DNA of 64,000 bases. It comes from Octopus vulgaris. Taxonomy: Eukaryota. Below the pieces are notes generated by a model. That model was not told where the DNA came from. It did not search any database and saw nothing but the letters and a program-made list of their open reading frames with translations. The DNA is taken from the NCBI GenBank assembly GCA_951406725.2, contig OX597820.1, positions 58,280,001 to 58,344,000 of the forward strand, given 5' to 3'. Position numbers and translations under genes: made by a program. This document shows, piece by piece, positions 3,461-45,675 of the stretch; positions within the stretch are counted from its first letter, which is position 1, and each line of letters opens with the position of its first letter.

Positions 3461-4199
3461 TATGTATATAGATACATATATATATACACAAACAACAGAT
3501 GCATAAATTTCACCACGCCTTCAATCTGATAGCCCTTGATTTTCCACCATCAGCAAGAAAATTATCTCACTATGGAGTTCTCCCTTCACAAACCCATATC
3601 ACAGGATAACCCAAGCAATATATTATACCAATCGTTCGATGCTCTTTGTGTGATCGATGACCTCAAGTTTCCCATACGTTTATGAGTTTTGTATGTTTAT
3701 CTGTGAATCCTGTATTTTCTCGCTAATTGACTTTAAATGGGAACTGAACGAGTTTAGCTAGTATATATAAACAGATACAACAATCTTTATAACTTATCAT
3801 TTGAGGATCCGAAGTGTGACCTCCAGCAGCTCTCAAAATATTCAGTCTGGGATAAAATCCTTTTTGCTCTACCGAAAAGTATTGAGTGCTTGTTCATATA
3901 ATTGTATAGACAAATGTCTCGATTTAAGTATGGCGTATTCATGTGCATGTATGTATATACGTATATATGTAAGTATGTATGTATATACATATATATGTAA
4001 GTATGTATGTATATATAACTAATATAAACAGCTAAGCGAAATCCGATCCCGTAAAGGAAAAATTCAATTGTCACTAAATGTGACTAAGGGTGCCAAGACA
4101 CCGACAATGCTAGAAATAAGAGTTGAACTACTCTTAATTCTGTAGCAAGAGCGTAAATGTATACATACATGCTGACAGGGGGTTCTAACCGCCCCATCA

Positions 4200-4278
4200 C
4201 CCGACTCGAGAATCACTCAGACTAAACGTTTAGTTTCGCCTATTTCCGTAGGCTTCATCAGTGAGGATAGATGTCGGG
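4200..4278 (-). ncRNA. type I hammerhead ribozyme, canonical core
   Basis: Minus strand: cuca CUGAUGA A GCCUA-cggaaa-UAGGC GAAA CUAAACGUUUAG UC|ugag. Helix I cuca/ugag plus distal atc/gat and cccgac/gtcggg; 14-nt palindromic helix III; GUC site with cleavage predicted between 4220 and 4219. Confidence 0.9.
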
Positions 4279-5067
4279 CAGTTCCGTCTGTCGGTATATA
4301 AGTATTCATCATAGAAATCTATGTGTCATTTAGCGGAATGCTAATGTGTATACAAAAGATTATATATACACCATACATACATTAATTCAAGTAAATGAAT
4401 TAGATAACAGCAATTAATAATTACATAATTATTACATGGCTAACAACGTTTTCGTATCAGTCATGGAAACAGTTGTAGAAAAGATGGTATTTTTGAAATA
4501 TCAATGACGTTGCTTGTTTTCTATGCTTCCTCATATTCCGCTCTGTCCGCTCGTTTTAACCTACTTTAAGAATTTTGCAATGTCGTACCCACTTTACTGC
4601 CACATTGAAGTAATAGTATATTGGAATTGATATATTGGAAAGGATATATTAACGAATTAAGGTCTAGAATCCTGTGTACGTATGTAGGTGTTAGTGTGCA
4701 CATGTAAACGGTGAGACACAGAGAGGGAGGTGCATTTGTGTGTGTGTGTGTGTGTGTTGCTTTTCGCAATTTGAATGCATTATGGACAAATGGTAAAGAA
4801 GTTCGCTTTGCAATCTTGAAGTCTTGGGTTCGATTTCAGTGCGTGGCATCCTGGGTGAATGTCATTTGACTTGAGTCATCCCCAGCTTTGAGAATGACTG
4901 TGGGTTAACAAAAACCGTGTTGGGAGCCAGTGATCATGCTGGTACAGGCTAAGAATTACGCTAAGGGTACTATGTCTGCTAGTTCGATAAGTAGGTACGT
5001 TCATTTATTCGAACAGTGTACTTATTGTCGAAACTGGCTGAGACCGTTTTTTTTTACTTAGCCAATA

Positions 5068-5904: not shown

Positions 5905-6545
5905 AGCTGACAGAATCGTTACCACGCTGGACGAAATACCTAGCGGTATTTCGCCCGTCGCTAAGTTCTAAGTTCAAATACCACCGAGGTCAACTTTGCC
6001 TTTCATCCTTCTGTGGTCGATAAATTAAGTACCAGTAAAACACTGGGTCGATGTAACAGACTAGTCCCCTCCCCACAAATTTCAAACCTTGTGCCTATAG
6101 TAGAAAGGTTTATTACTATTTGTATTAAGGCGGCGAGCTGGCAGAAACGTTAGCACGCCGGGCGAAATGCGTAGCCGTATTTCGTCTGTCGCTACGTTCT
6201 GAGTTCAAATTCCGCCGAGGTCGACTTTGCCTTTCATCCTTTCGGGGTCGCTTAAATAAGTACCAGTTACGCACTGGGGTCGATATAATCGACTTAATTC
6301 GTTTGTCTGTCCTTGTTTATCTCCTTTGTGTTTAGCCCCTTGTGGGTAGTAAAGAAATAGGTATTTCGCCCGTCTCTACGTTCTGAGTTCAAATTCTGCC
6401 GAGGTCAACATTGCTTTTCGTCCTTTCAGGGTCGATAAATTAAGTACCAGTTGAACACTGGAGTCGTCGTAATCGATACATTACCACCTCCCACCCCCAC
6501 CACCAAAAAATAGCTGCCCTTGTGGCTAAGTTTGAAACCATTATT
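5905..6545 (+). mobile_element. cluster of SINE family A copies (monomer about 5905-6110, dimeric copy 6129-6540)
   Basis: ggcggcgagctggcagaaacgttagcacgccgggcgaaatgc head; body repeated twice, joined by the tgtctgtccttgtt...cccttgtgggtagtaaagaaatag linker. Confidence 0.85.
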
Positions 6546-15486: not shown

Positions 15487-15491
15487 CATAC

Positions 15492-18070
15492 ATATATAAG
15501 AGTTTATAAGTATTTATACACAGAGAGGTGACCCTTGTCAGGACGCCTTACATGCTAGAAATGGCAGCCAAACCCAATCCACGAAAAAAAGTAATTCCAA
15601 TGAGAATAAAAGCAAAAATTATTTATAGTCCTAACCAAACTCGAGTTTCTGTATTAATGAACAAATAAATTGATTTGTCATCCGTACTTCGTCAGTGGGA
15701 TCGCTAAGACAATGCTTAATTATGCAGCTAATACGTACCGAAATCACACGTGCTTGCTGCATACTTATAGATTATGTTTTCGAATCAACCGCGCAAGTGC
15801 AGTCACATAGTCAACGGTAGTTAATAAAATTATTTTCTACTCTAGGCACAAGGCCCGAAATTTGGGGGGAGGGGGGAGCAGTCGATTAGATCGACGCCAG
15901 TGCGTAACTGGTACTTAATTTATCGACCTCGAAAGGATGAAAGGCAAAGTCGACCTCGACGGAATTTGAACTCAGAACGCAAAGACAGACGAAATACCTA
16001 TTTCTTCATTACCCACAAGGGGCTAAACACAGAGGGGACAAACAAGGACAGACATAGGTATTAAGTCGATTACATCGACCCCAGTGCGTAACTGGGACTT
16101 AATTTATCGACCTCGAAAGGATGAAAGGCAAAGTCGACCTCGACGGAATTTGAACTCAGAACGTAAAGACAGACGAAATACCTATTTCTTTACTACCCAC
16201 AAGGGGCCAAACACAGAGAGGACAAACAAGGACAGACATAGGTATTAAGTCGATTACATCGACCCCAGTGCGTAACTGGTACTTAATTTATCGACCTCGA
16301 AAGGATGAAAGGCAAAGTTGACCTCGACGGAATTTGAACTCAGAACGTAAAGACAGACGAAATACCGCTAAGCATTTCGCCCGGCGTGCTAACGTTTCTG
16401 CCAGCTCGCCGCCTTAGTAAATAAAATTAAGACTGTACGAAAAAGCTTTGAAACCATGAAAATTTTACTGTGAAAATTATAAGGGTAGAATATTTAGAAA
16501 TATTTTCACACCGGTGGCTAGCATGCGTAATAAAACTCAATAGACAACATATTTTCATATATAAGAGTATATAAATATTTACACACAGAGAGTGGCCCCT
16601 TGACAGGACACCTTACATGCTAGAAAGGGCAGCTAAACACAAACCACGAAAAAAAGGCAATTCCAAAGAGAATGAAAAAAAAATATTTATAGTCCTAACC
16701 AAACTCGAGTTTCTGTATTAATGAACAAATAAACTAATTTGTCATCCGTACTTCGTCAGTGGGATCGCTAAGACAATGCATGATTATGCAGCTAATACGT
16801 ACCGAAATCACACCTGCTTGCTGCATACTTATAGATTATGTTTTCAAATCAACCGCGCAAGTGCAGTCACGTAGTCAGCAGTCAATAATAAAATTAAAAC
16901 TGCGTACCAAAGGGCTTTGAAATTGTGAAAATTTTATACGTGCTTGCTGCATACTTATAGATAATGTTTTCAAATCAACCGCGCAAGTGCAGTCACGTTG
17001 TCAGCAGTCAATAATAAAATTAAAACTGCGTACCAAAGGGCTTTGAAATTGTGAAAATTTTATACGTGCTTGCTGCATACTTATAGATAATGTTTTCAAA
17101 TCAACCGCGCAAGTGCAGTCACGTAGTCAGCAGTCAATAATAAAATTAAAACTGCGTACCAAAGGGCTTTGAAATTGTGAAAATTTTATACGTGCTTGCT
17201 GCATACTTATAGATAATGTTTTCAAATCAACCGCGCAAGTGCAGTCACGTAGTCAGCAGTCAATAATAAAATTAAAACTGCGTACCAAAGGGCTTTGAAA
17301 TTGTGAAAATTTTATACGTGCTTGCTGCATACTTATAGATAATGTTTTCAAATCAACCGCGCAAGTGCAGTCACGTAGTCAGCAGTCAATAATAAAATTA
17401 AAACTGCGTACCAAAGGGCTTTGAAATTGTGAAAATTTTATACGTGCTTGCTGCATACTTATAGATAATGTTTTCAAATCAACCGCGCAAGTGCAGTCAC
17501 GTAGTCAGCAGTCAATAATAAAATTAAAACTGCGTACCAAAGGGCTTTGAAATTGTGAAAATTTTATACGTGCTTGCTGCATACTTATAGATAACGTTCT
17601 CAGATCAACCACACAAGCGCAATCACATAGCCAGCAGTTTTAATTTTATTATTCACTGCTGATTACGTGACTGAACTTGTGCGGTTAATTTGAAAACATA
17701 ATCTATAAGTATGCAGCAAGCACGTGTGATTTCGGTACGAATTAGCTGCATAATTATGCATTGTCTTAGCGATCCCACTGACGAAGTATGGATGACAAAT
17801 TAATTTATTTGTTCATTAATACAGAAACTCGAGTTTGGGGTTAACTATAAATAATTTTTTTTTTCATTCTCTTTGGCATTACTCTTTTTCAAGGTTTGTG
17901 TTTGGCTGCCCTTTCTAGCATGTAAGGTGTCCTGTCAAGGGTCACCTTTATGTGTATAAATATTTATACACTCTTATATATGAAAATACGTTGTCTATTG
18001 AGGTTTATTACGCGTGCTAGACACCGGTATGAATTTTTTCATAAATTTTCTACCATTATAATTGTACACA
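15492..18070. repeat. complex foldback repeat: about 480-bp unit in direct copies, 126-bp tandem array, and an inverted copy
   Basis: Direct copies start near 15492 and 16559; 126-bp units at 16815, 16941, 17067, 17193, 17319, 17445 and partial 17571; 17637-18070 is the reverse complement of about 16469-16900. Confidence 0.9.
15833..16413 (-). mobile_element. trimeric SINE family A with 15-bp TSD
   Basis: Body repeated three times at 184-bp period (gaaaggatgaaagg at 15931, 16115, 16299); flanks tagttaataaaatta (15818-15832) and tagtaaataaaatta (16415-16429). Confidence 0.9.
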
Positions 18071-29856: not shown

Positions 29857-31828
29857 TCACCTTGATCACCTTGACCGACCAGTCCGTCAGGCGTCCATTT
29901 GACACCGCTGGTCACAGCACGCTGTCCACTCCTCTCTGGATCGCGCCTTTCTCATCCACGTGATCCCAATCGTCCTCCTGAAATCGTAACTCCACCGTCG
30001 TGGAGGTCTTCCGGGTGGTCTTTTCCGCTCACGCGGGTACCACTCGAAAACTGGGTGCGTCCACCGATTATCGGTGAGCCGGGCGACGTGTCCAGCCCAT
30101 CTATACTTGCTGCGTGTATACTCTGCGATGACATCTCTCACGCCGGACTTCTTTCTGATGATCTTGCTACTTATGTGCTCTCTCAACGAGATACCAAGCA
30201 TTGAACTTTCCATGGCTCTTTGAGCCGTTACCAGTCTTTGCTCTTCTCTCTTTGTGGTAGCCCATGTTTCACTACCATATAACATTGCAGGCAGAACTGC
30301 ACTGTTAATGAGGTTGGCGCGGGTGGTCCTGTCCAACCTTCCATTGAGCACATCCCTTATGCCATTGAACGTCTTCCATCCGGCCCTTACTCTCCGTGAG
30401 ATCTCCTTTTTGATATCCCGGCACATATTTACTTCCTGTCCCAAGTAGACATATTCCCTCACCTCCTCTATTTCATCACAGCCGATCACCATTCTACCTG
30501 TTGGTACATTGTCTGACCGCATGAACTTTGTTTTCATGCGGTTCATCTTGAGACCTACTGCAGAACTTTTGATGTCGAGCTCCGTCAGCATAGTCTGAAG
30601 CTGATCCATGTTTTCAGCGATGAGTACGATGTCGTCAGCGAAACGGAGGTGAGTGAGGAGCTCGCCATTGATGTTGACACCACCTTACCGGTCGATGCCT
30701 TTGATGATCTGTTCGAGACATGCAGTGAAAAGTTTTGGGGAGATTGTATCTCCTTGCTTCACTCCCTTCTCGACCGGCACTCGTATGGGTGATGACAGTA
30801 GAGTTATGTCGGTGGTGCATCCGGAATTTGCCTCTCTGAGCAGCTGCGCATATTGCGCTTCGATTCCTTGCCACTGCAGCGAGTTTAGCACTGCGTTGGT
30901 TTCGATGCTATCGAAGGCCTTCTCATAATCTATAAACGCAACGCAAAGAGGCAGCTTGTACTCATTTGCTCGCTCAAGCAGTTGCGTTAGAGTAAATAGA
31001 TGGTCCATTGTGCTGTAGTTCTTCCGGAAGCCTGCTTGTTCCTTCGGTTGTTGTTCGTCGAGACGACGTGACAACCTGTTCAGAATTATCTTCGTGAACA
31101 GCTTGTACACGTGAGACAGCAGGCATATGGGTCGGTAGTTCTTTAGATCTTCTCTGTCGCCCTTCTTATACAGCAGGATGGTATTTGACTCTTTCTACTG
31201 CGAAGGAATTCTTCCCTCGTCTAGATAGTGCGTAAATCGCTCAGCGAGGATTTTCCAGAGCTGCTCTCTGCCTGACTTTAGCATCTCCGATGTTATACCG
31301 TCTTTCCCTGGAGCCTTTCCGTTTTTCATCGAGCCGATGACTCTTTCAACCTCACTGACAAGGATAGGTGGCACGTTTTCTTCCTGTTGGAGTGGTGGTA
31401 ACGGCTGGACATTTCTGGTAGACTTAAAGAGCTTGGTGTAGAAGTCTTCACAAACTTTTTCCATCTCGCTCTTCTCGTTGACCGGTATTCCATCTGTATT
31501 TTTCAGGGCCGTCACCTCCGATCTATATAGTACCATGTCCCTCTTGCATTTCTTGAGGCTCTTCTTTTCCTCTGTGGCCTTCAAGAGCTTCTCCATCCGG
31601 TATGCCTCAAAGTCTTTCTTTAGTTGCTGACGAATCACTCTGCTGAGAATGGAATATTCAAGGTGATCTTCAATAGTCCTCTTCATATTTTTCCTCTTCT
31701 CGAGTAACTTAGTAGTTTCTTCCGAGATTCTTCCCTTCTTTTCTCTTGGGCATACTCCCTTAGCCTTCCTTAAACACTCCTTCAGTTTCCCTATCAGTGA
31801 GTTGTAGTCATCGTCTATGTCGTCTCCT
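29857..31828 (-). mobile_element. young 5'-truncated RTE-clade LINE
   Basis: ORFs 31195-31686, 30685-31110 and 29887-30609 share one frame split by only two stops; KAPGKDGI, NYRPICLL, QAGFR, DYEKAFDS, GVKQGD, LRFADD, YVYLG, YGSETW, WAGHVAR, GRPPRRW; tail ggtgatcaaggtgat into (TA)n. Confidence 0.95.
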
Positions 31829-31859
31829 ATATATGCATGTGTGTAACATATGTTATGTA

Positions 31860-31913
<54 letters not shown>

Positions 31914-31915
<2 letters not shown>

Positions 31916-38064: not shown

Positions 38065-38558
38065 TAAACAGAAAGACGAAATATTTCTAAGCATATCGCC
38101 CGGCGTGCTAACATTTCTGCCAGCTTGCCGCCTTGTTATATATATTTCTTTACTAACCACAAGGAACTAAACACAGAGGGGACAAACAAGGACAGACAAA
38201 CAGATTAAGTCGATTATATCGACCCCAGTGCGTAACTGGTACTTAATTTATCGACCTCGAAATGATGAAAGGCAAAGTCAACCTCGGCAGAATTTGAATT
38301 CAGAATGTAACAACAGATGAAATACCTATTTCTTTACTACCCACAAGGAGCTAAACACAGAGGGGACAAACAACGACAGACAAACAGATTAAGTCGATTA
38401 TATCGACCCCAGTGCGTAACTGATACTTAATTTATCGACCCTGAAAGGATGAAAGGCAAAGTCGTCCTCGGCGGAATTTGAACTCAGAACGTAGCAGCAG
38501 ACGAAATGCGGCTACGCATTTCGCCCGGCGTGCTAACGTTTCTGCCAGCTCGCCGCCT
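38065..38558 (-). mobile_element. multimeric SINE family A
   Basis: Two body+linker units with head at 38500-38558; a second head fragment at about 38070-38132. Confidence 0.85.
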
Positions 38559-39768: not shown

Positions 39769-40379
39769 CTTTGTCTTTCAGTATTCAGAGATCATCACTC
39801 TCTCTCTCCACCAACTATTAACTACACTTCTCTCAACTCACTCCACTTACCATTTCCCACTCAACATATTCTCTGGCAGAGTATTTGGGACGTCAGACAA
39901 AATGCTTAGCGGTATTTCTTCTTGCCCTAAGTTCAAATCCCTTCGAAGTCAACTTGGTCTTTCATCTTTTCAGAGTCGATAAAATGAACTACTAGGTGCT
40001 GGGGGGTCGATCTAAACGACTTGCCCTACTTTCCTCAAAATTGTTGACGCTGGACCCTGCAACGAATCGACATCCTTTTCAAGGAGTCTGTGGAGATATC
40101 AGTAACTTCTACGGCATGGAATCCGGGTTACCAGTCCTATGCCTACGAAACTTTAAGCTACATGGGCCTAATTGAATCAAATTGTTTTAGATAATATGTG
40201 TGTGTGTGTGTGTGTGTGTGTGTTTACACACACATGTACACACATATAGTAATAATAATAATAATTAAGATAGCTAGAGGCAGTTCAAAACCAAAAACGA
40301 AATAATTCATCGTCACTAAAAAATGATGAAGAGTATAGGAAGCACCAGTATTACTAGACATAAAAGTTAAAGAACTTTT

Positions 40380-41080
40380 GGATCTATTCCATTTGACGGA
40401 CAGATATTTTAATAATTTTTTTTTTAATTAAACACTTTGAAACTTAGAATACCGATAGAATGTGTTAGATAGAACAGGGTTTACTCTTGACGTTTTTGAC
40501 AAAATTTTGTATTTTAGAAGTTATTTCGTGTTAAAGTTGTTGTATTTGGATAATTTTAACCAATCAATGACGTGTATTCAGCTAAAGAAAATTACCGTTG
40601 CTGTTTGCGAACAACAACTTCCAGGACCATACCAATGAAAGAGCCTCAACCTGGTCGCTCGACACGCTAAAAATAGCAACCAAAGTATCCCCCTACCTAA
40701 ATCATACGTCCATTGTACATAATGTCCTAGATTAACCCTAAAAAAGGCGGTTTGCTGAAGGCTAGAATGTCTTTGATGATAGGTTTGCTGTATCAGGGTT
40801 AATTTGAGGTTAAATAATTACAAAATTATTACTGAGACAGACCAACGACGGAGACTGAATGTGGTTGCATGACCAAACTTTTCTATGTACAGAATAGAAA
40901 AACCTCTGACACGTTCAACCAGTATCCGAAGTTTCAATTTTTGTTTAACTTTAACACGAAATAACTGCTAAAATGCAAAATTTTATCAAAAACGTTATGA
41001 GTAAACCCTGTTCTATGTGACAGAAAGTGTTTAGTTAAAAAATTTAATCCAAAAATCTGTCCGTCAAATGAAATAGATCC
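40380..41080. mobile_element. MITE with long imperfect TIRs (superfamily unassigned)
   Basis: ggatctattccatttgacggacagat...gttatttcgtgttaaagtt (40380-40538) mirrored by aactttaacacgaaataac...atctgtccgtcaaatgaaatagatcc (about 40947-41080). Confidence 0.85.
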
Positions 41081-41156
41081 GCATTTTTTAGCCAAAGAAC
41101 TAATTTTTTTTTATTTAATGACAGGGGTGACAACTTCCACACGGCAATTGAGTGGT

Positions 41157-41205
41157 ATTAGATTGGCATGCCAATTTTGCATGGAATTTAATGCTCATCA
41201 GTAAT
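41157..41205 (-). ncRNA. type I HHR with a single G12-to-A core mutation
   Basis: Minus: auua CUGAUGA GCAU uaaauucc AUGC AAAA UUGGCAUGCCAA UC|uaau; 14-nt palindromic helix III. Confidence 0.8.
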
Positions 41206-41759
41206 GCTTACCCCACGGCGGGTTGTGAAGCTGAATTCTACCCTGTCAATAACTATATACATATATATATATATATGAGTATATATACACGTAGAGTCCA
41301 TTATGTCTGGGAAGAAAGACGGAATGGTCACAGTTGGGACGTCTTTGATTATATCTGTTCAATCAGTTTCAACTCGGAACTAAACAAGAGGTGACGAAGG
41401 GAACGAGATGAGGCAACGAGAGATCCTTTACTTGGTTGATCGAGTTGCTAGAAAGAGCAACCAAATCTTCCTGACGAAGAGAAAACTGAAATTTCCATCT
41501 TCAAGAAAAAAAAATTAAAGTTTCTATTATTTTATAATGTTCGCTTAGGAATTCATTACTTCAAGAAAAGAATAAGACAAAATAGCCATGGCTGGAACGC
41601 CTTTTCTCATAGATCCATTACAATCAGAGCTATCCTGTGGTTAAAACTATATTCTTCACTGAATGATGAATCAGCTAATATATATATGAGTGAATGGACA
41701 AACGAAAAAATGTGGCACTTGGCACGTTTTGTAGAGCTAAACATATTACTTAATAATAG

Positions 41760-43885: not shown

Positions 43886-45675
43886 ATAAGGAGGTTTGAG
43901 AGTTGAATACGGATTAACCATTTCCATGATTTTCATATGAGTCCAGCTCTTTCATAATCTTCTCAGTGTAGTATTATTAATGTTAACATTCCAAATTAAT
44001 ATATACATTTAAATATGAATTTTTAGCATTATATAATGCAATTGTAAGGCGGCGAGCTGGCAGAAACGTTAGCACGCCGGGCAAAATGCTTAGCGGTATT
44101 TCGTCTGCCGCTACGTTCTGAGTTCAAATTCCGCCGAGGTCGACTTTGCCTTTCAGCCTTTCGGGGTCGATTAAATAAGTACCATTTACGCACTGAGGTT
44201 GATATAATCGACTTCATCCGTTTGTCTGTCCTTGTTTGTCCTCTATGTGCTTAGCCCTTTGTGGGTAGTAAAGAAATAGGTATTTCGTCTGTTTTTATCT
44301 TCTGAGTTCAAATTCAGCCGAGGTCGACTTTGCCTTTCATCCTTCTGGGGTCGATAAATTAGGTATCAGTTGCGCACTGGGGTCAATTTAATCGACTGGC
44401 CCTTCCCCCAAAATTTCGAGCCTTGTGTCTAGTATAGAAAATAATATTTTCTAATCTAGGCACAATGCCCGAAATTTTGAGGGACGGAGCCAGTCGATTA
44501 GATCGAACCCAATACGCAGCTGGTACTTAATTTATCGATCCCGAAAGGATGAAAGGCAAAGTCGACCTCGGCGTCATTTGAACTCAGAACTTAAAGACAG
44601 ACGAAAGCATTTTGCCCGACATGCTAACGTTTCTTATTTCTGTATTACCCACAAGGGGCTAAACATAGAGGGGACAAACAATGACAAAGGGATTAAGTCG
44701 ATTACATCGACCTCAGTGCGTAACTGGTACTTAATTTATCGACCCTGAAAGGATGAAAGGCAAAGTCGACCTCGGCGGAATTTGAACTCAGAACTTAGAG
44801 ACAAACGAAATACTGCTAAGCATTTCGCCCGGCGTGTTAACGTTTCTGCCAGCTCACCGCCATATGTTTAGCATTATAATTTACGTTCAGCATATTCGCA
44901 TTCATGTTTGTGAGTGTGTACATATATATAAATATATGTGATCGGAGTCGATAAAATAAGTCCCAGTTAAACACTGATGTCGATGTAATCGACTCACCCA
45001 CTTTCCCGGAATTGCTGGCCTTGTGCCAAAATTTGAAACCATTATATAATGCAATTGTATATTACAAAATGATATATAAAAGAGAAAACTGTGTCCGTCT
45101 CTAATTTAATGATAGTCTCATAAACCTTGATGGGTGTGGTTTCCAACTGGGTTTTGTGATGCGAAGATCTTTATTTTTATTTTTAATGATTGACAGCAAT
45201 TGACCTTCCGAGATATATTTTGTTTGTTTTGCATAGCAAAACATTTATAATTTCTTTTGAATATTTTCAGTAAAGCTGCCTGCCATAGGGCGTGTTTAAA
45301 AAGGGATTATTTGATAAAATATCATTTTACAAGCTTATTCACCATTTTCAAAAATAGTTTCCATTACAAATGAAATTATTGTGTCTACTTCCAGTTTTGG
45401 CCTTCCATACATTGTGTACAAACCGAATGGGTTTTGTTTGTGTAACAGAGTTGAAACTTTAATGTATCCATGATGTCCCGATATATATGACCTGATGAAT
45501 TATGCTTCCATACCTAATATACAACTGTATTATATAATGTTAAATATGCAATTGATGTAAAATGTTTGTAGTAATTTGGAATGTTAGAGTTAATAATACG
45601 AGTTAGAGAAGATTACGAAACGGCTGTTATCATATGGAAATAATAAATCTTTATTAACTTTTCAAACCTCCTCGC
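43886..45675. mobile_element. mariner-like MITE with long TIRs hosting a SINE A cluster
   Basis: aggaggtttgagagttg...taacattccaaatta (43888-43997) is inverted at 45572-45673 (ttcaaacctcctcg); similarity extends to about 44046 and 45520. Confidence 0.7.
44048..45039. mobile_element. composite SINE A block: plus dimer 44048-44445, minus dimer 44448-44861, plus tail 44942-45039
   Basis: Tail-to-tail inverted copies; whole block flanked by cattatataatgcaattgta at 44027-44046 and 45040-45059. Confidence 0.85.

What the first reader, a model, noticed from the sequence alone, without database searches (positions are those of the whole stretch)
41119..41249. Second rod cassette with the same tgacagggg...ctgtc ends but a fully different HHR sequence
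Seen: tgacagggg at 41119 and ccctgtca near 41241-41248 bracket an HHR, as at 4173 and 4288, yet helices I, II and III are all different in sequence while still pairing. The only core defect is GAAA to AAAA, consistent with CpG decay. Inference: natural covariation supports selection on RNA structure and a conserved closing stem that may be the RT recognition signal.
Basis: partly seen in the sequence, partly recalled or inferred. Interest (0 to 1): 0.75.

Follow-up and report, generated by a model that had tools for sequence, protein, structure and literature searches.

The report
Decayed hammerhead retrozyme with internal stem
This is one worn, interrupted copy of a roughly 340-base protein-less repeat that carries a hammerhead (predicted self-cutting) RNA motif and is likely moved by Penelope-type jumping genes, a known kind of element; its shared stem lies inside the repeat and likely stalls the copying enzyme rather than attracting it.

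Summary
A type I hammerhead lies on the minus strand (core 41201-41162) inside a 130-nt rod. A12 is CpG decay: 20 of 37 family copies keep CG, 8 read CA, 6 read TG.

The two 'cassettes' are not separate elements. They are diverged subfamilies of one ~344-nt non-coding unit (six subfamilies, roughly 5,000 copies). Helices I-III covary between subfamilies (82 of 84 cells paired), and helix III is a 12-14-nt palindrome in each, which points to dimeric cleavage. Single copies simply decay; the window copy is 5'-truncated and split by a ~700-bp inverted-repeat insert.

The closing stem is not an element end. Copies end ~150 nt further on, at (TA)n tracts, behind a better-conserved structured 3' domain that is the likelier RT signal. 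Instead, 5' truncations and inversions pile up at the foot of the rod (25 of 76 at risk).

(TA)n targeting, head-to-head inversions and more-than-unit lengths fit a Penelope-mobilised non-LTR retrozyme; no autonomous partner was found. The kind is known, and this scan noted similar retrozymes elsewhere in this genome.

The parts
40262..41257 (-). Whole inserted copy, subfamily B: 5'-truncated (unit columns 59-343 of 344), split by a later insertion
   Evidence: profile mapping; homology to other loci
41241..41248 (-). 5' arm of the closing stem (UGACAGGG on the RNA strand)
41202..41207 (-). Helix I, 5' strand
41195..41201 (-). Hammerhead core CUGAUGA
41179..41194 (-). Helix II, 4 bp with 8-nt loop
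41175..41178 (-). Core GAAA read as AAAA; A12 at 41178 is CpG decay
41162..41175 (-). Helix III, perfect 14-nt palindrome (predicted dimer interface)
41155..41161 (-). C17, predicted cleavage site (41161/41160) and helix I 3' strand with one broken pair
41119..41126 (-). 3' arm of the closing stem; foot of the rod, where 5' truncations and inversions of other copies cluster
41089..41096 (-). 5' strand of helix P1, which opens the 3' domain
40380..41088 (.). Later ~700-bp insertion with ~150-bp inverted ends (MITE-like, high copy) that splits the 3' domain
40262..40379 (-). Rest of the conserved 3' domain (P2, conserved single strand, P3, P4 hairpin, P1 3' strand) and the integration end, running into (TAA)n/(TG)n
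41258..41290 (.). (TA)n tract at the truncated 5' junction
4018..4360 (-). Subfamily A copy, one unit long; intact core 4261-4221, 12-nt deletion in the rod, rod arms at 4173 and 4288

Best explanation
The feature is the hammerhead-bearing rod of a decayed copy of a ~344-nt non-coding repeat unit, likely a non-LTR retrozyme that a Penelope-like element's enzyme wrote into (TA)n tracts. Shown: unit structure, six covarying subfamilies, microsatellite junctions, 5' truncation, more-than-unit copies, head-to-head inversions, decay of the copies. Inferred: source copies with two or more units were transcribed; paired ribozymes joined through the palindromic helix III and cut out monomers, which were probably ligated into circles; a PLE RT/GIY-YIG protein bound the structured 3' domain, primed at a nicked (TA)n tract just past helix P1 and copied towards and often through the rod and the former cut site, sometimes for more than one round. 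The closing stem seals the rod into its own folding domain and acts as a barrier where RT drops off or switches template.
For: Copies across the genome (41 and 40 matches; 700 exact hits of a 19-mer against 0 for the control; about 4,800 copies estimated from 11 exact in 76). Unit spacing 281-363 nt in 34 loci. Pairing 82 of 84 cells over six subfamily majorities, shuffles mean 58.6, maximum 70 of 10,000 runs; helix III including its would-be loop covaries (0 of 500 shuffles). 53 of 65 canonical 3' ends have a microsatellite within 30 nt, 40 of 65 (TA)n, background 0.17-0.19 and 0.10-0.12. 47 of 149 copies exceed one unit by more than 20 nt with no fixed 5' start. 7 of 149 5' ends lie near the cut site, no excess. 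25 of 76 at risk stop at the foot of the rod against 0.05-0.16 in other first-round bins (Fisher p 5e-6). 20 head-to-head inversions in 125 loci, 11 with an arm starting at columns 186-201. Young Hydra-type and Neptune-type PLEs ending in (TA)n exist in the genome. For the B core the dimeric hammerhead equals the two-strand minimum-energy fold.
Against: No autonomous PLE with this unit as its terminal repeat in 92 PLE loci of three families. No long tandem arrays seen; only a few two-ribozyme copies (L009, L043, L060). One exact match of the intact B core in the genome, so no young source copy. The same-template test was inconclusive. The pile-up is not significant in the cassette-selected set alone (10 of 66, p 0.14), the window was chosen after looking, and both arms of inverted copies were counted. 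RNAalifold gave no consensus fold for the 3' domain on the decayed copies. The dimeric hammerhead is not the two-strand minimum for the other five subfamilies. The rod folds about equally well on both strands in three of six subfamilies. Cleavage and expression are untested.
Confidence: 0.8

Rival explanations
1. The unit is the terminal repeat (pLTR) of an old autonomous Penelope-like element, and the copies are its 5'-truncated leftovers.
For: PLE pLTRs carry type I hammerheads with palindromic helix III (PMC4209133, passages). PLE fragments lie within 1.5 kb in 13 of the loci. In L025 a Hydra-type RT fragment directly follows the unit's 3' end.
Against: Wherever homology continues upstream it is the unit's own 3' end, not an ORF. 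In the five loci read where a PLE lies upstream in the same direction, its own 3' end and a microsatellite or unrelated DNA separate it from the unit. No profile match at PLE 3' UTRs.
Confidence: 0.1
2. One reading: the conserved closing stem is the RT recognition signal and the rod is the mobile cassette.
For: Six pairs of the stem are kept in all six subfamily majorities with almost no sequence change, while inner helices change; predicted pairing probability about 1. Sequence invariance can mean protein recognition.
Against: The stem is internal; 46 of 57 copies extend to the 3' domain; many copies contain only the 3' domain and begin at or after the stem's 3' arm; no target duplication flanks the rod, the flanks are element sequence.
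Confidence: 0.07
3. A DNA element (MITE with TGACAGGG ends, or a Helitron-like rolling-circle element) that happens to contain a hammerhead-like sequence.
For: Inverted ends, a small hairpin near one end and partial tandems also occur in such elements (recalled); the rod folds on both strands.
Against: The catalytic core and three covarying helices are kept on one strand across six subfamilies; one end is clustered and the other truncated at random; ends pile up before the rod, not after it.
Confidence: 0.03

Closest known systems
Metazoan non-LTR retrozymes (Cervera and de la Pena 2020, PMC7229834; abstract, passages and Discussion read)
   Same: Type I hammerhead in a non-coding unit of 150-450 nt (mussel 350-390 nt); co-existence with PLEs; proposed RT of a circle giving tandem copies.
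   Different: Described families form dimers to 62-mers and are expressed as circles; here copies are old, mostly 0.3-1.9 units with one ribozyme, and expression is unknown. In the parts read the paper maps no RT start, 3' domain or stall site.
[quoted passage not shown]
   Same: Type I topology, palindromic helix III, extra nucleotide between 9 and 10.1 (subfamilies A, A2, A3), many covarying families per genome, dimer model, more-than-unit RT proposal.
   Different: There helix III is 1-2 bp with a 2-4-nt palindromic loop, or absent; here the palindrome is 12-14 nt and sits in a 130-nt rod with no ORF.
   Same: Solo 'monomer' copies dispersed over chromosomes; PLE origin proposed; most tested genomic copies inactive (1 of 9 cleaved).
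   Different: No mollusc is among the classes named in the text; there 24 of 57 families matched a known element, here no pLTR match was found.
Hydra and Neptune PLE clades (Craig et al. 2021, PMC8557442; passages and section 11 read)
   Same: (TA)n target bias, partial tandems, inverted 5'-truncated copies.
   Different: They encode RT and GIY-YIG; their 3' UTRs in this genome do not match the unit.

Membership tests
Type I hammerhead ribozyme | CUGANGA, GAAA and NUH core | tested here: met
   All six subfamily majorities; the window copy has G12A
Type I hammerhead ribozyme | Three helices around the core, open at helix I, with covariation | tested here: met
   82 of 84 cells paired; helix III on 44 copies
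Type I hammerhead ribozyme | Site-specific self-cleavage | not testable with these tools
   No bench assay; no RNA reads
Non-LTR retrozyme | Non-coding unit of 150-450 nt with a type I hammerhead | tested here: met
   Unit 281-363 nt in 34 loci; no ORF continuing into the unit
Non-LTR retrozyme | Head-to-tail repeats with two or more ribozymes | tested here: inconclusive
   47 of 149 copies exceed one unit and a few carry two ribozymes (L009, L043, L060), but no long array was seen in the loci fetched
Non-LTR retrozyme | Expressed as linear and circular monomer RNA | not testable with these tools
   No RNA holder listed; genomic footprint fits a circle or an uncut multimer
PLE-mobilised element | Insertion into microsatellites, mainly (TA)n | tested here: met
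   53 of 65 and 40 of 65 against 0.17-0.19 and 0.10-0.12 background
PLE-mobilised element | 5' truncation, partial tandems, head-to-head inverted copies | tested here: met
   (20 inversions in 125 loci)
PLE-mobilised element | Homology to the pLTR of an autonomous PLE | tested here: not met
   92 loci of one Hydra-type and two Neptune-type families; Naiad, Poseidon, Nematis and older lineages not sampled
PLE-mobilised element | Optional 30-40-nt tail beyond the 3' end | tested here: inconclusive
   Two extensions of 18-20 nt and a few of 55-116 nt among 152 ends
MITE / DNA transposon | Inverted repeats at the element's ends, flanked by host DNA | tested here: not met
   Both flanks of the rod are conserved element sequence

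The most novel reading that the evidence does not exclude
The unit is a two-domain circular RNA whose non-ribozyme half is a compact multibranch fold (P1 with three compensatory changes, P2-P4 and an invariant single strand) that recruits a Penelope-type RT in trans and sets the priming point about 10 nt past P1, much as a boundary helix does in telomerase RNA. The hammerhead rod, held shut by the closing stem and switched on only through a 12-14-nt palindromic dimer, is the main RT barrier and a snap-back site that explains the head-to-head inversions typical of PLEs. This would be a defined cis signal for PLE reverse transcriptases, which I did not find in the papers searched.
Probability: 0.3. 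Interest if true: 0.62.

Novelty: new member of a known kind. Interest (0 to 1): 0.33.

Why it matters
As a locus it is ordinary: one dead copy among thousands. As a family it is a useful natural mutagenesis set. Six diverged subfamilies separate what must be kept as structure (helices I-III, P1, P3) from what is kept as sequence (core, closing stem, a single strand in the 3' domain). The ends of the copies map where reverse transcription starts and stalls. That makes the open question of how PLE enzymes recognise and copy retrozyme RNA testable, and it redirects the test from the closing stem to the 3' domain.

Tried and rejected
Rfam scan of the window: only microsatellite-driven miRNA hits among 150 of 181 rows shown, no hammerhead family.

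Autonomous partner: a young Hydra-type PLE (717-aa ORF), a 781-aa Neptune-type family and a second Neptune-type family do not carry the unit. A 10-12-nt motif shared by the stem's 3' arm and that second family's 3' UTR was seen after the fact and has no profile support. Pfam gave no family for either PLE protein.

Same-circle test: duplicated or inverted 3' domains within one locus differ by 0.22-0.25, the family level, and are rarely each other's nearest match (3 of 39, 0 of 24). The copies are too old to tell a circle from a multimer.

RNAalifold on 56 3' domains: no structure. The named structure did exceed shuffles for cells paired and two-sided changes (0 of 500) but not for the number of covarying pairs (124 of 500); P1's three changes lie on one lineage split.

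Selection on single copies: non-CpG substitution is 0.10 in the core, 0.13 in stems, 0.15 in the closing stem and 0.16 elsewhere. The core deficit is significant, but 'elsewhere' includes hidden subfamily differences, so I do not read it as selection after insertion.

Expression: no RNA holder listed, no evidence either way. Contigs of four DNA runs show G12 in paralogous contigs; they cannot settle whether A12 is fixed at this locus.

The window-copy line started at a wrong position and was discarded (redone). One search stopped with an error after four families (redone). Lunse et al. 2017 was not held, so its helix III lengths are unchecked; supplements of all papers were not read and may list octopus or similar families.

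Full report
OBSERVATION. A descriptor scan of both strands gives four hammerhead-like sites, all on the minus strand; two are these (41201 and 4261). At 41201 the RNA reads helix I, CUGAUGA, a 4-bp helix II, AAAA in place of GAAA (A12 at 41178), a 14-nt palindrome, AUC and helix I, with the cut predicted at 41161/41160. The 130 nt fold as a rod closed by the 8-bp stem (minus strand -37 kcal/mol, z -1.9; plus strand z -3.5). The hammerhead fold of this copy lies 5.4 kcal/mol above its minimum.

WHAT IT BELONGS TO. The window lies in a 2.8-Gb, microsatellite-rich animal genome; octopus-like by my recollection of such genomes and by earlier AI notes, not established here. Both cassettes are repeats: 41 matches for 41119 (77-88% identity apart from itself; 40 of 110 candidates scored) and 40 for 4173. 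Homology runs on at both sides, and the two families share those flanks. A 19-mer from the shared flank has 700 exact matches (control 0). As 11 of 76 independently collected copies keep it exactly, there are roughly 4,800 copies. In 34 loci two copies of this flank are 281-363 nt apart, which defines a 344-column unit: linker (1-66), closing stem 5' arm (67), core (114-153), closing stem 3' arm (about 189-197), spacer, conserved 3' domain (about 215-337), end (344). The window's B copy covers columns 59-343. It is truncated at a (TA)n tract near 41257 and split at about 40380-41088 by a ~700-bp element with inverted ends. The A copy is one unit long (4360-4018).

COVARIATION AND DECAY. Clustering 93 ribozyme-bearing segments gave six subfamilies of 4-37 copies and 8 left over. 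All six majorities have the full core. Over 14 pairs of helices I-III, 82 of 84 cells pair; shuffles average 58.6 with a maximum of 70 in 10,000 (registers were set on these majorities and the subfamilies are related, so this is no probability). Helix III is a 12-14-nt self-complementary string in all six (perfect in four majorities, one CpG-type change in two), and its central positions, a loop in the monomer fold, change together. That matches the published dimer model (PMC4209133, passages), with a longer palindrome than described there. For B the dimeric hammerhead is the two-strand minimum (-35.2 against -29.8 for two monomers); for the others it is 2-16 kcal/mol above it. A and B are thus not 'fully different': they share 2 of 6, 3 of 5 and 2 of 7 pairs in helices I-III and 7 of 9 in the closing stem. 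Only 25 of 85 copies keep the core, members differ by about 25%, and the intact B core has one exact match in the genome: the family looks extinct, and selection acted on the source lineages.

THE CLOSING STEM. It is real and nearly invariant (predicted pairing about 1 in all six), but it is not an end. Of 57 copies picked by cassette similarity alone, 46 run on to column 280 or beyond and 5 end at 190-235, one of them the window copy cut by its insert. Of 152 3' ends, 131 lie in columns 281-20 and 65 in 335-8; 53 of these 65 run into a microsatellite and 40 into (TA)n (background 0.17-0.19 and 0.10-0.12). The 5' ends spread from about 100 to 650 nt, 47 of 149 exceed a unit by more than 20 nt, and only 7 of 149 fall near the cut site. 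The template was therefore a circle or an uncut multimer, not a cut linear monomer; the copies are too old to tell which. The 5' ends do cluster at columns 185-210, the foot of the rod: 39 of 149, with no sense-strand rod upstream on reading them. The stop rate there is 25 of 76 against 0.05-0.16 in the other first-round bins, and 9 of 20 in the second round, where the next bins are also high on small numbers (p 5e-6). In the cassette-selected set alone the excess is not significant (10 of 66). Twenty of 125 loci are head-to-head inversions, the PLE hallmark (PMC8557442 and PMC3846280, passages); by my count of the printed rows 11 have an arm starting at columns 186-201, and L007 and L126 switch exactly at the stem's inverted repeat. 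The simplest reading is a barrier and template-switch site for RT.

THE 3' DOMAIN. The part next to the integration end is the most conserved (71-93% between subfamilies, against 49-82% for the rod interior; the motif used for collection lies here, which favours it). It can form a multibranch fold: P1 (GUGGC/GCCAC in B, C/E and D; ACAGC/GCUGU in the A group), a hairpin P2, a conserved single strand, P3 with compensatory changes and a GUCAC/GUGAC hairpin. On 56 copies three neighbouring P1 pairs change on both sides in 10-13 copies each; 82.6% of cells pair and 55 cells change on both sides against 22.6 in shuffles. Those three changes lie on one lineage split, and RNAalifold predicted nothing on these decayed copies. 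P1 closes about 10 nt before the usual end, so this domain is the better candidate for the RT signal (inference).

WHO MOVED IT. The genome holds a young PLE with the Hydra-clade motifs RWK, DKT and CxCX5C (717 aa, ending in (TA)n) and Neptune-type families. None of 92 such loci has the unit as its 3' repeat. PLE fragments near 13 loci are mostly separate insertions into the same tracts. In L025 the unit's 3' end joins a Hydra-type RT fragment directly, a single case that may be a template jump. PLE mobilisation is thus inferred from the footprint, and the partner is unnamed.

COMPARISON AND VERDICT. The element works like, and largely qualifies as, a metazoan non-LTR retrozyme (PMC7229834; bioRxiv 10.64898/2026.07.22.740005). 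Untested: cleavage and circular RNA. Not met: homology to a sampled pLTR. Seven literature searches showed no description of this family or of an RT signal in retrozymes; supplements were not read. Earlier notes of this scan describe palindromic-helix-III hammerheads and young retrozymes in the same genome. New member of a known kind; interest 0.33.

Noticed in passing
window 56096 (minus strand): Another type I hammerhead with an intact core (CUGAAGA, 7-bp helix II, 8-nt palindromic helix III, GUA site), not of this family.
   Followed up: no
window 34354 (minus strand): Minimal PLE-type hammerhead with a CCGACGA core variant, next to long (TA)n tracts.
   Followed up: no
window 40380-41088: High-copy ~700-bp element with ~150-bp inverted ends, inserted in the retrozyme; relatives in L110, L113, L135, L163.
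   Followed up: partly
L091 (G000:C1:57208000-57217900), L083, L092, L093: Young, abundant Hydra-type PLE: intact 717-aa ORFs in ~2.58-kb tandems and inversions, 3' UTR with a variant hammerhead (CCGAAGA core), ends in (TA)n; 6,549 first-look candidates.
   Followed up: partly
L170, L175 and L184, L195-L224: Two Neptune-type PLE families; the 781-aa one has a 3' UTR of short internal repeats, the other ends in (TA)n and has a divergent minimal-hammerhead-like motif.
   Followed up: partly
L025:1736-2133: The unit's 3' end is joined directly to a Hydra-type RT fragment that begins just before the YRDD motif; possible template jump.
   Followed up: partly
window 16815-17638: Near-perfect tandem of 6.5 copies of a 126-bp unit, lying between 342-bp inverted arms at 15491-15832 and 17641-17982.
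   Followed up: no
window 15880-16366, 38143-38507, 6123-6485, 44045-44397: Dispersed SINE-like repeat with a 184-bp tandem unit, on both strands.
   Followed up: no
window about 29890-31914 (minus strand): Fragmented LINE-type reverse-transcriptase reading frames.
   Followed up: no
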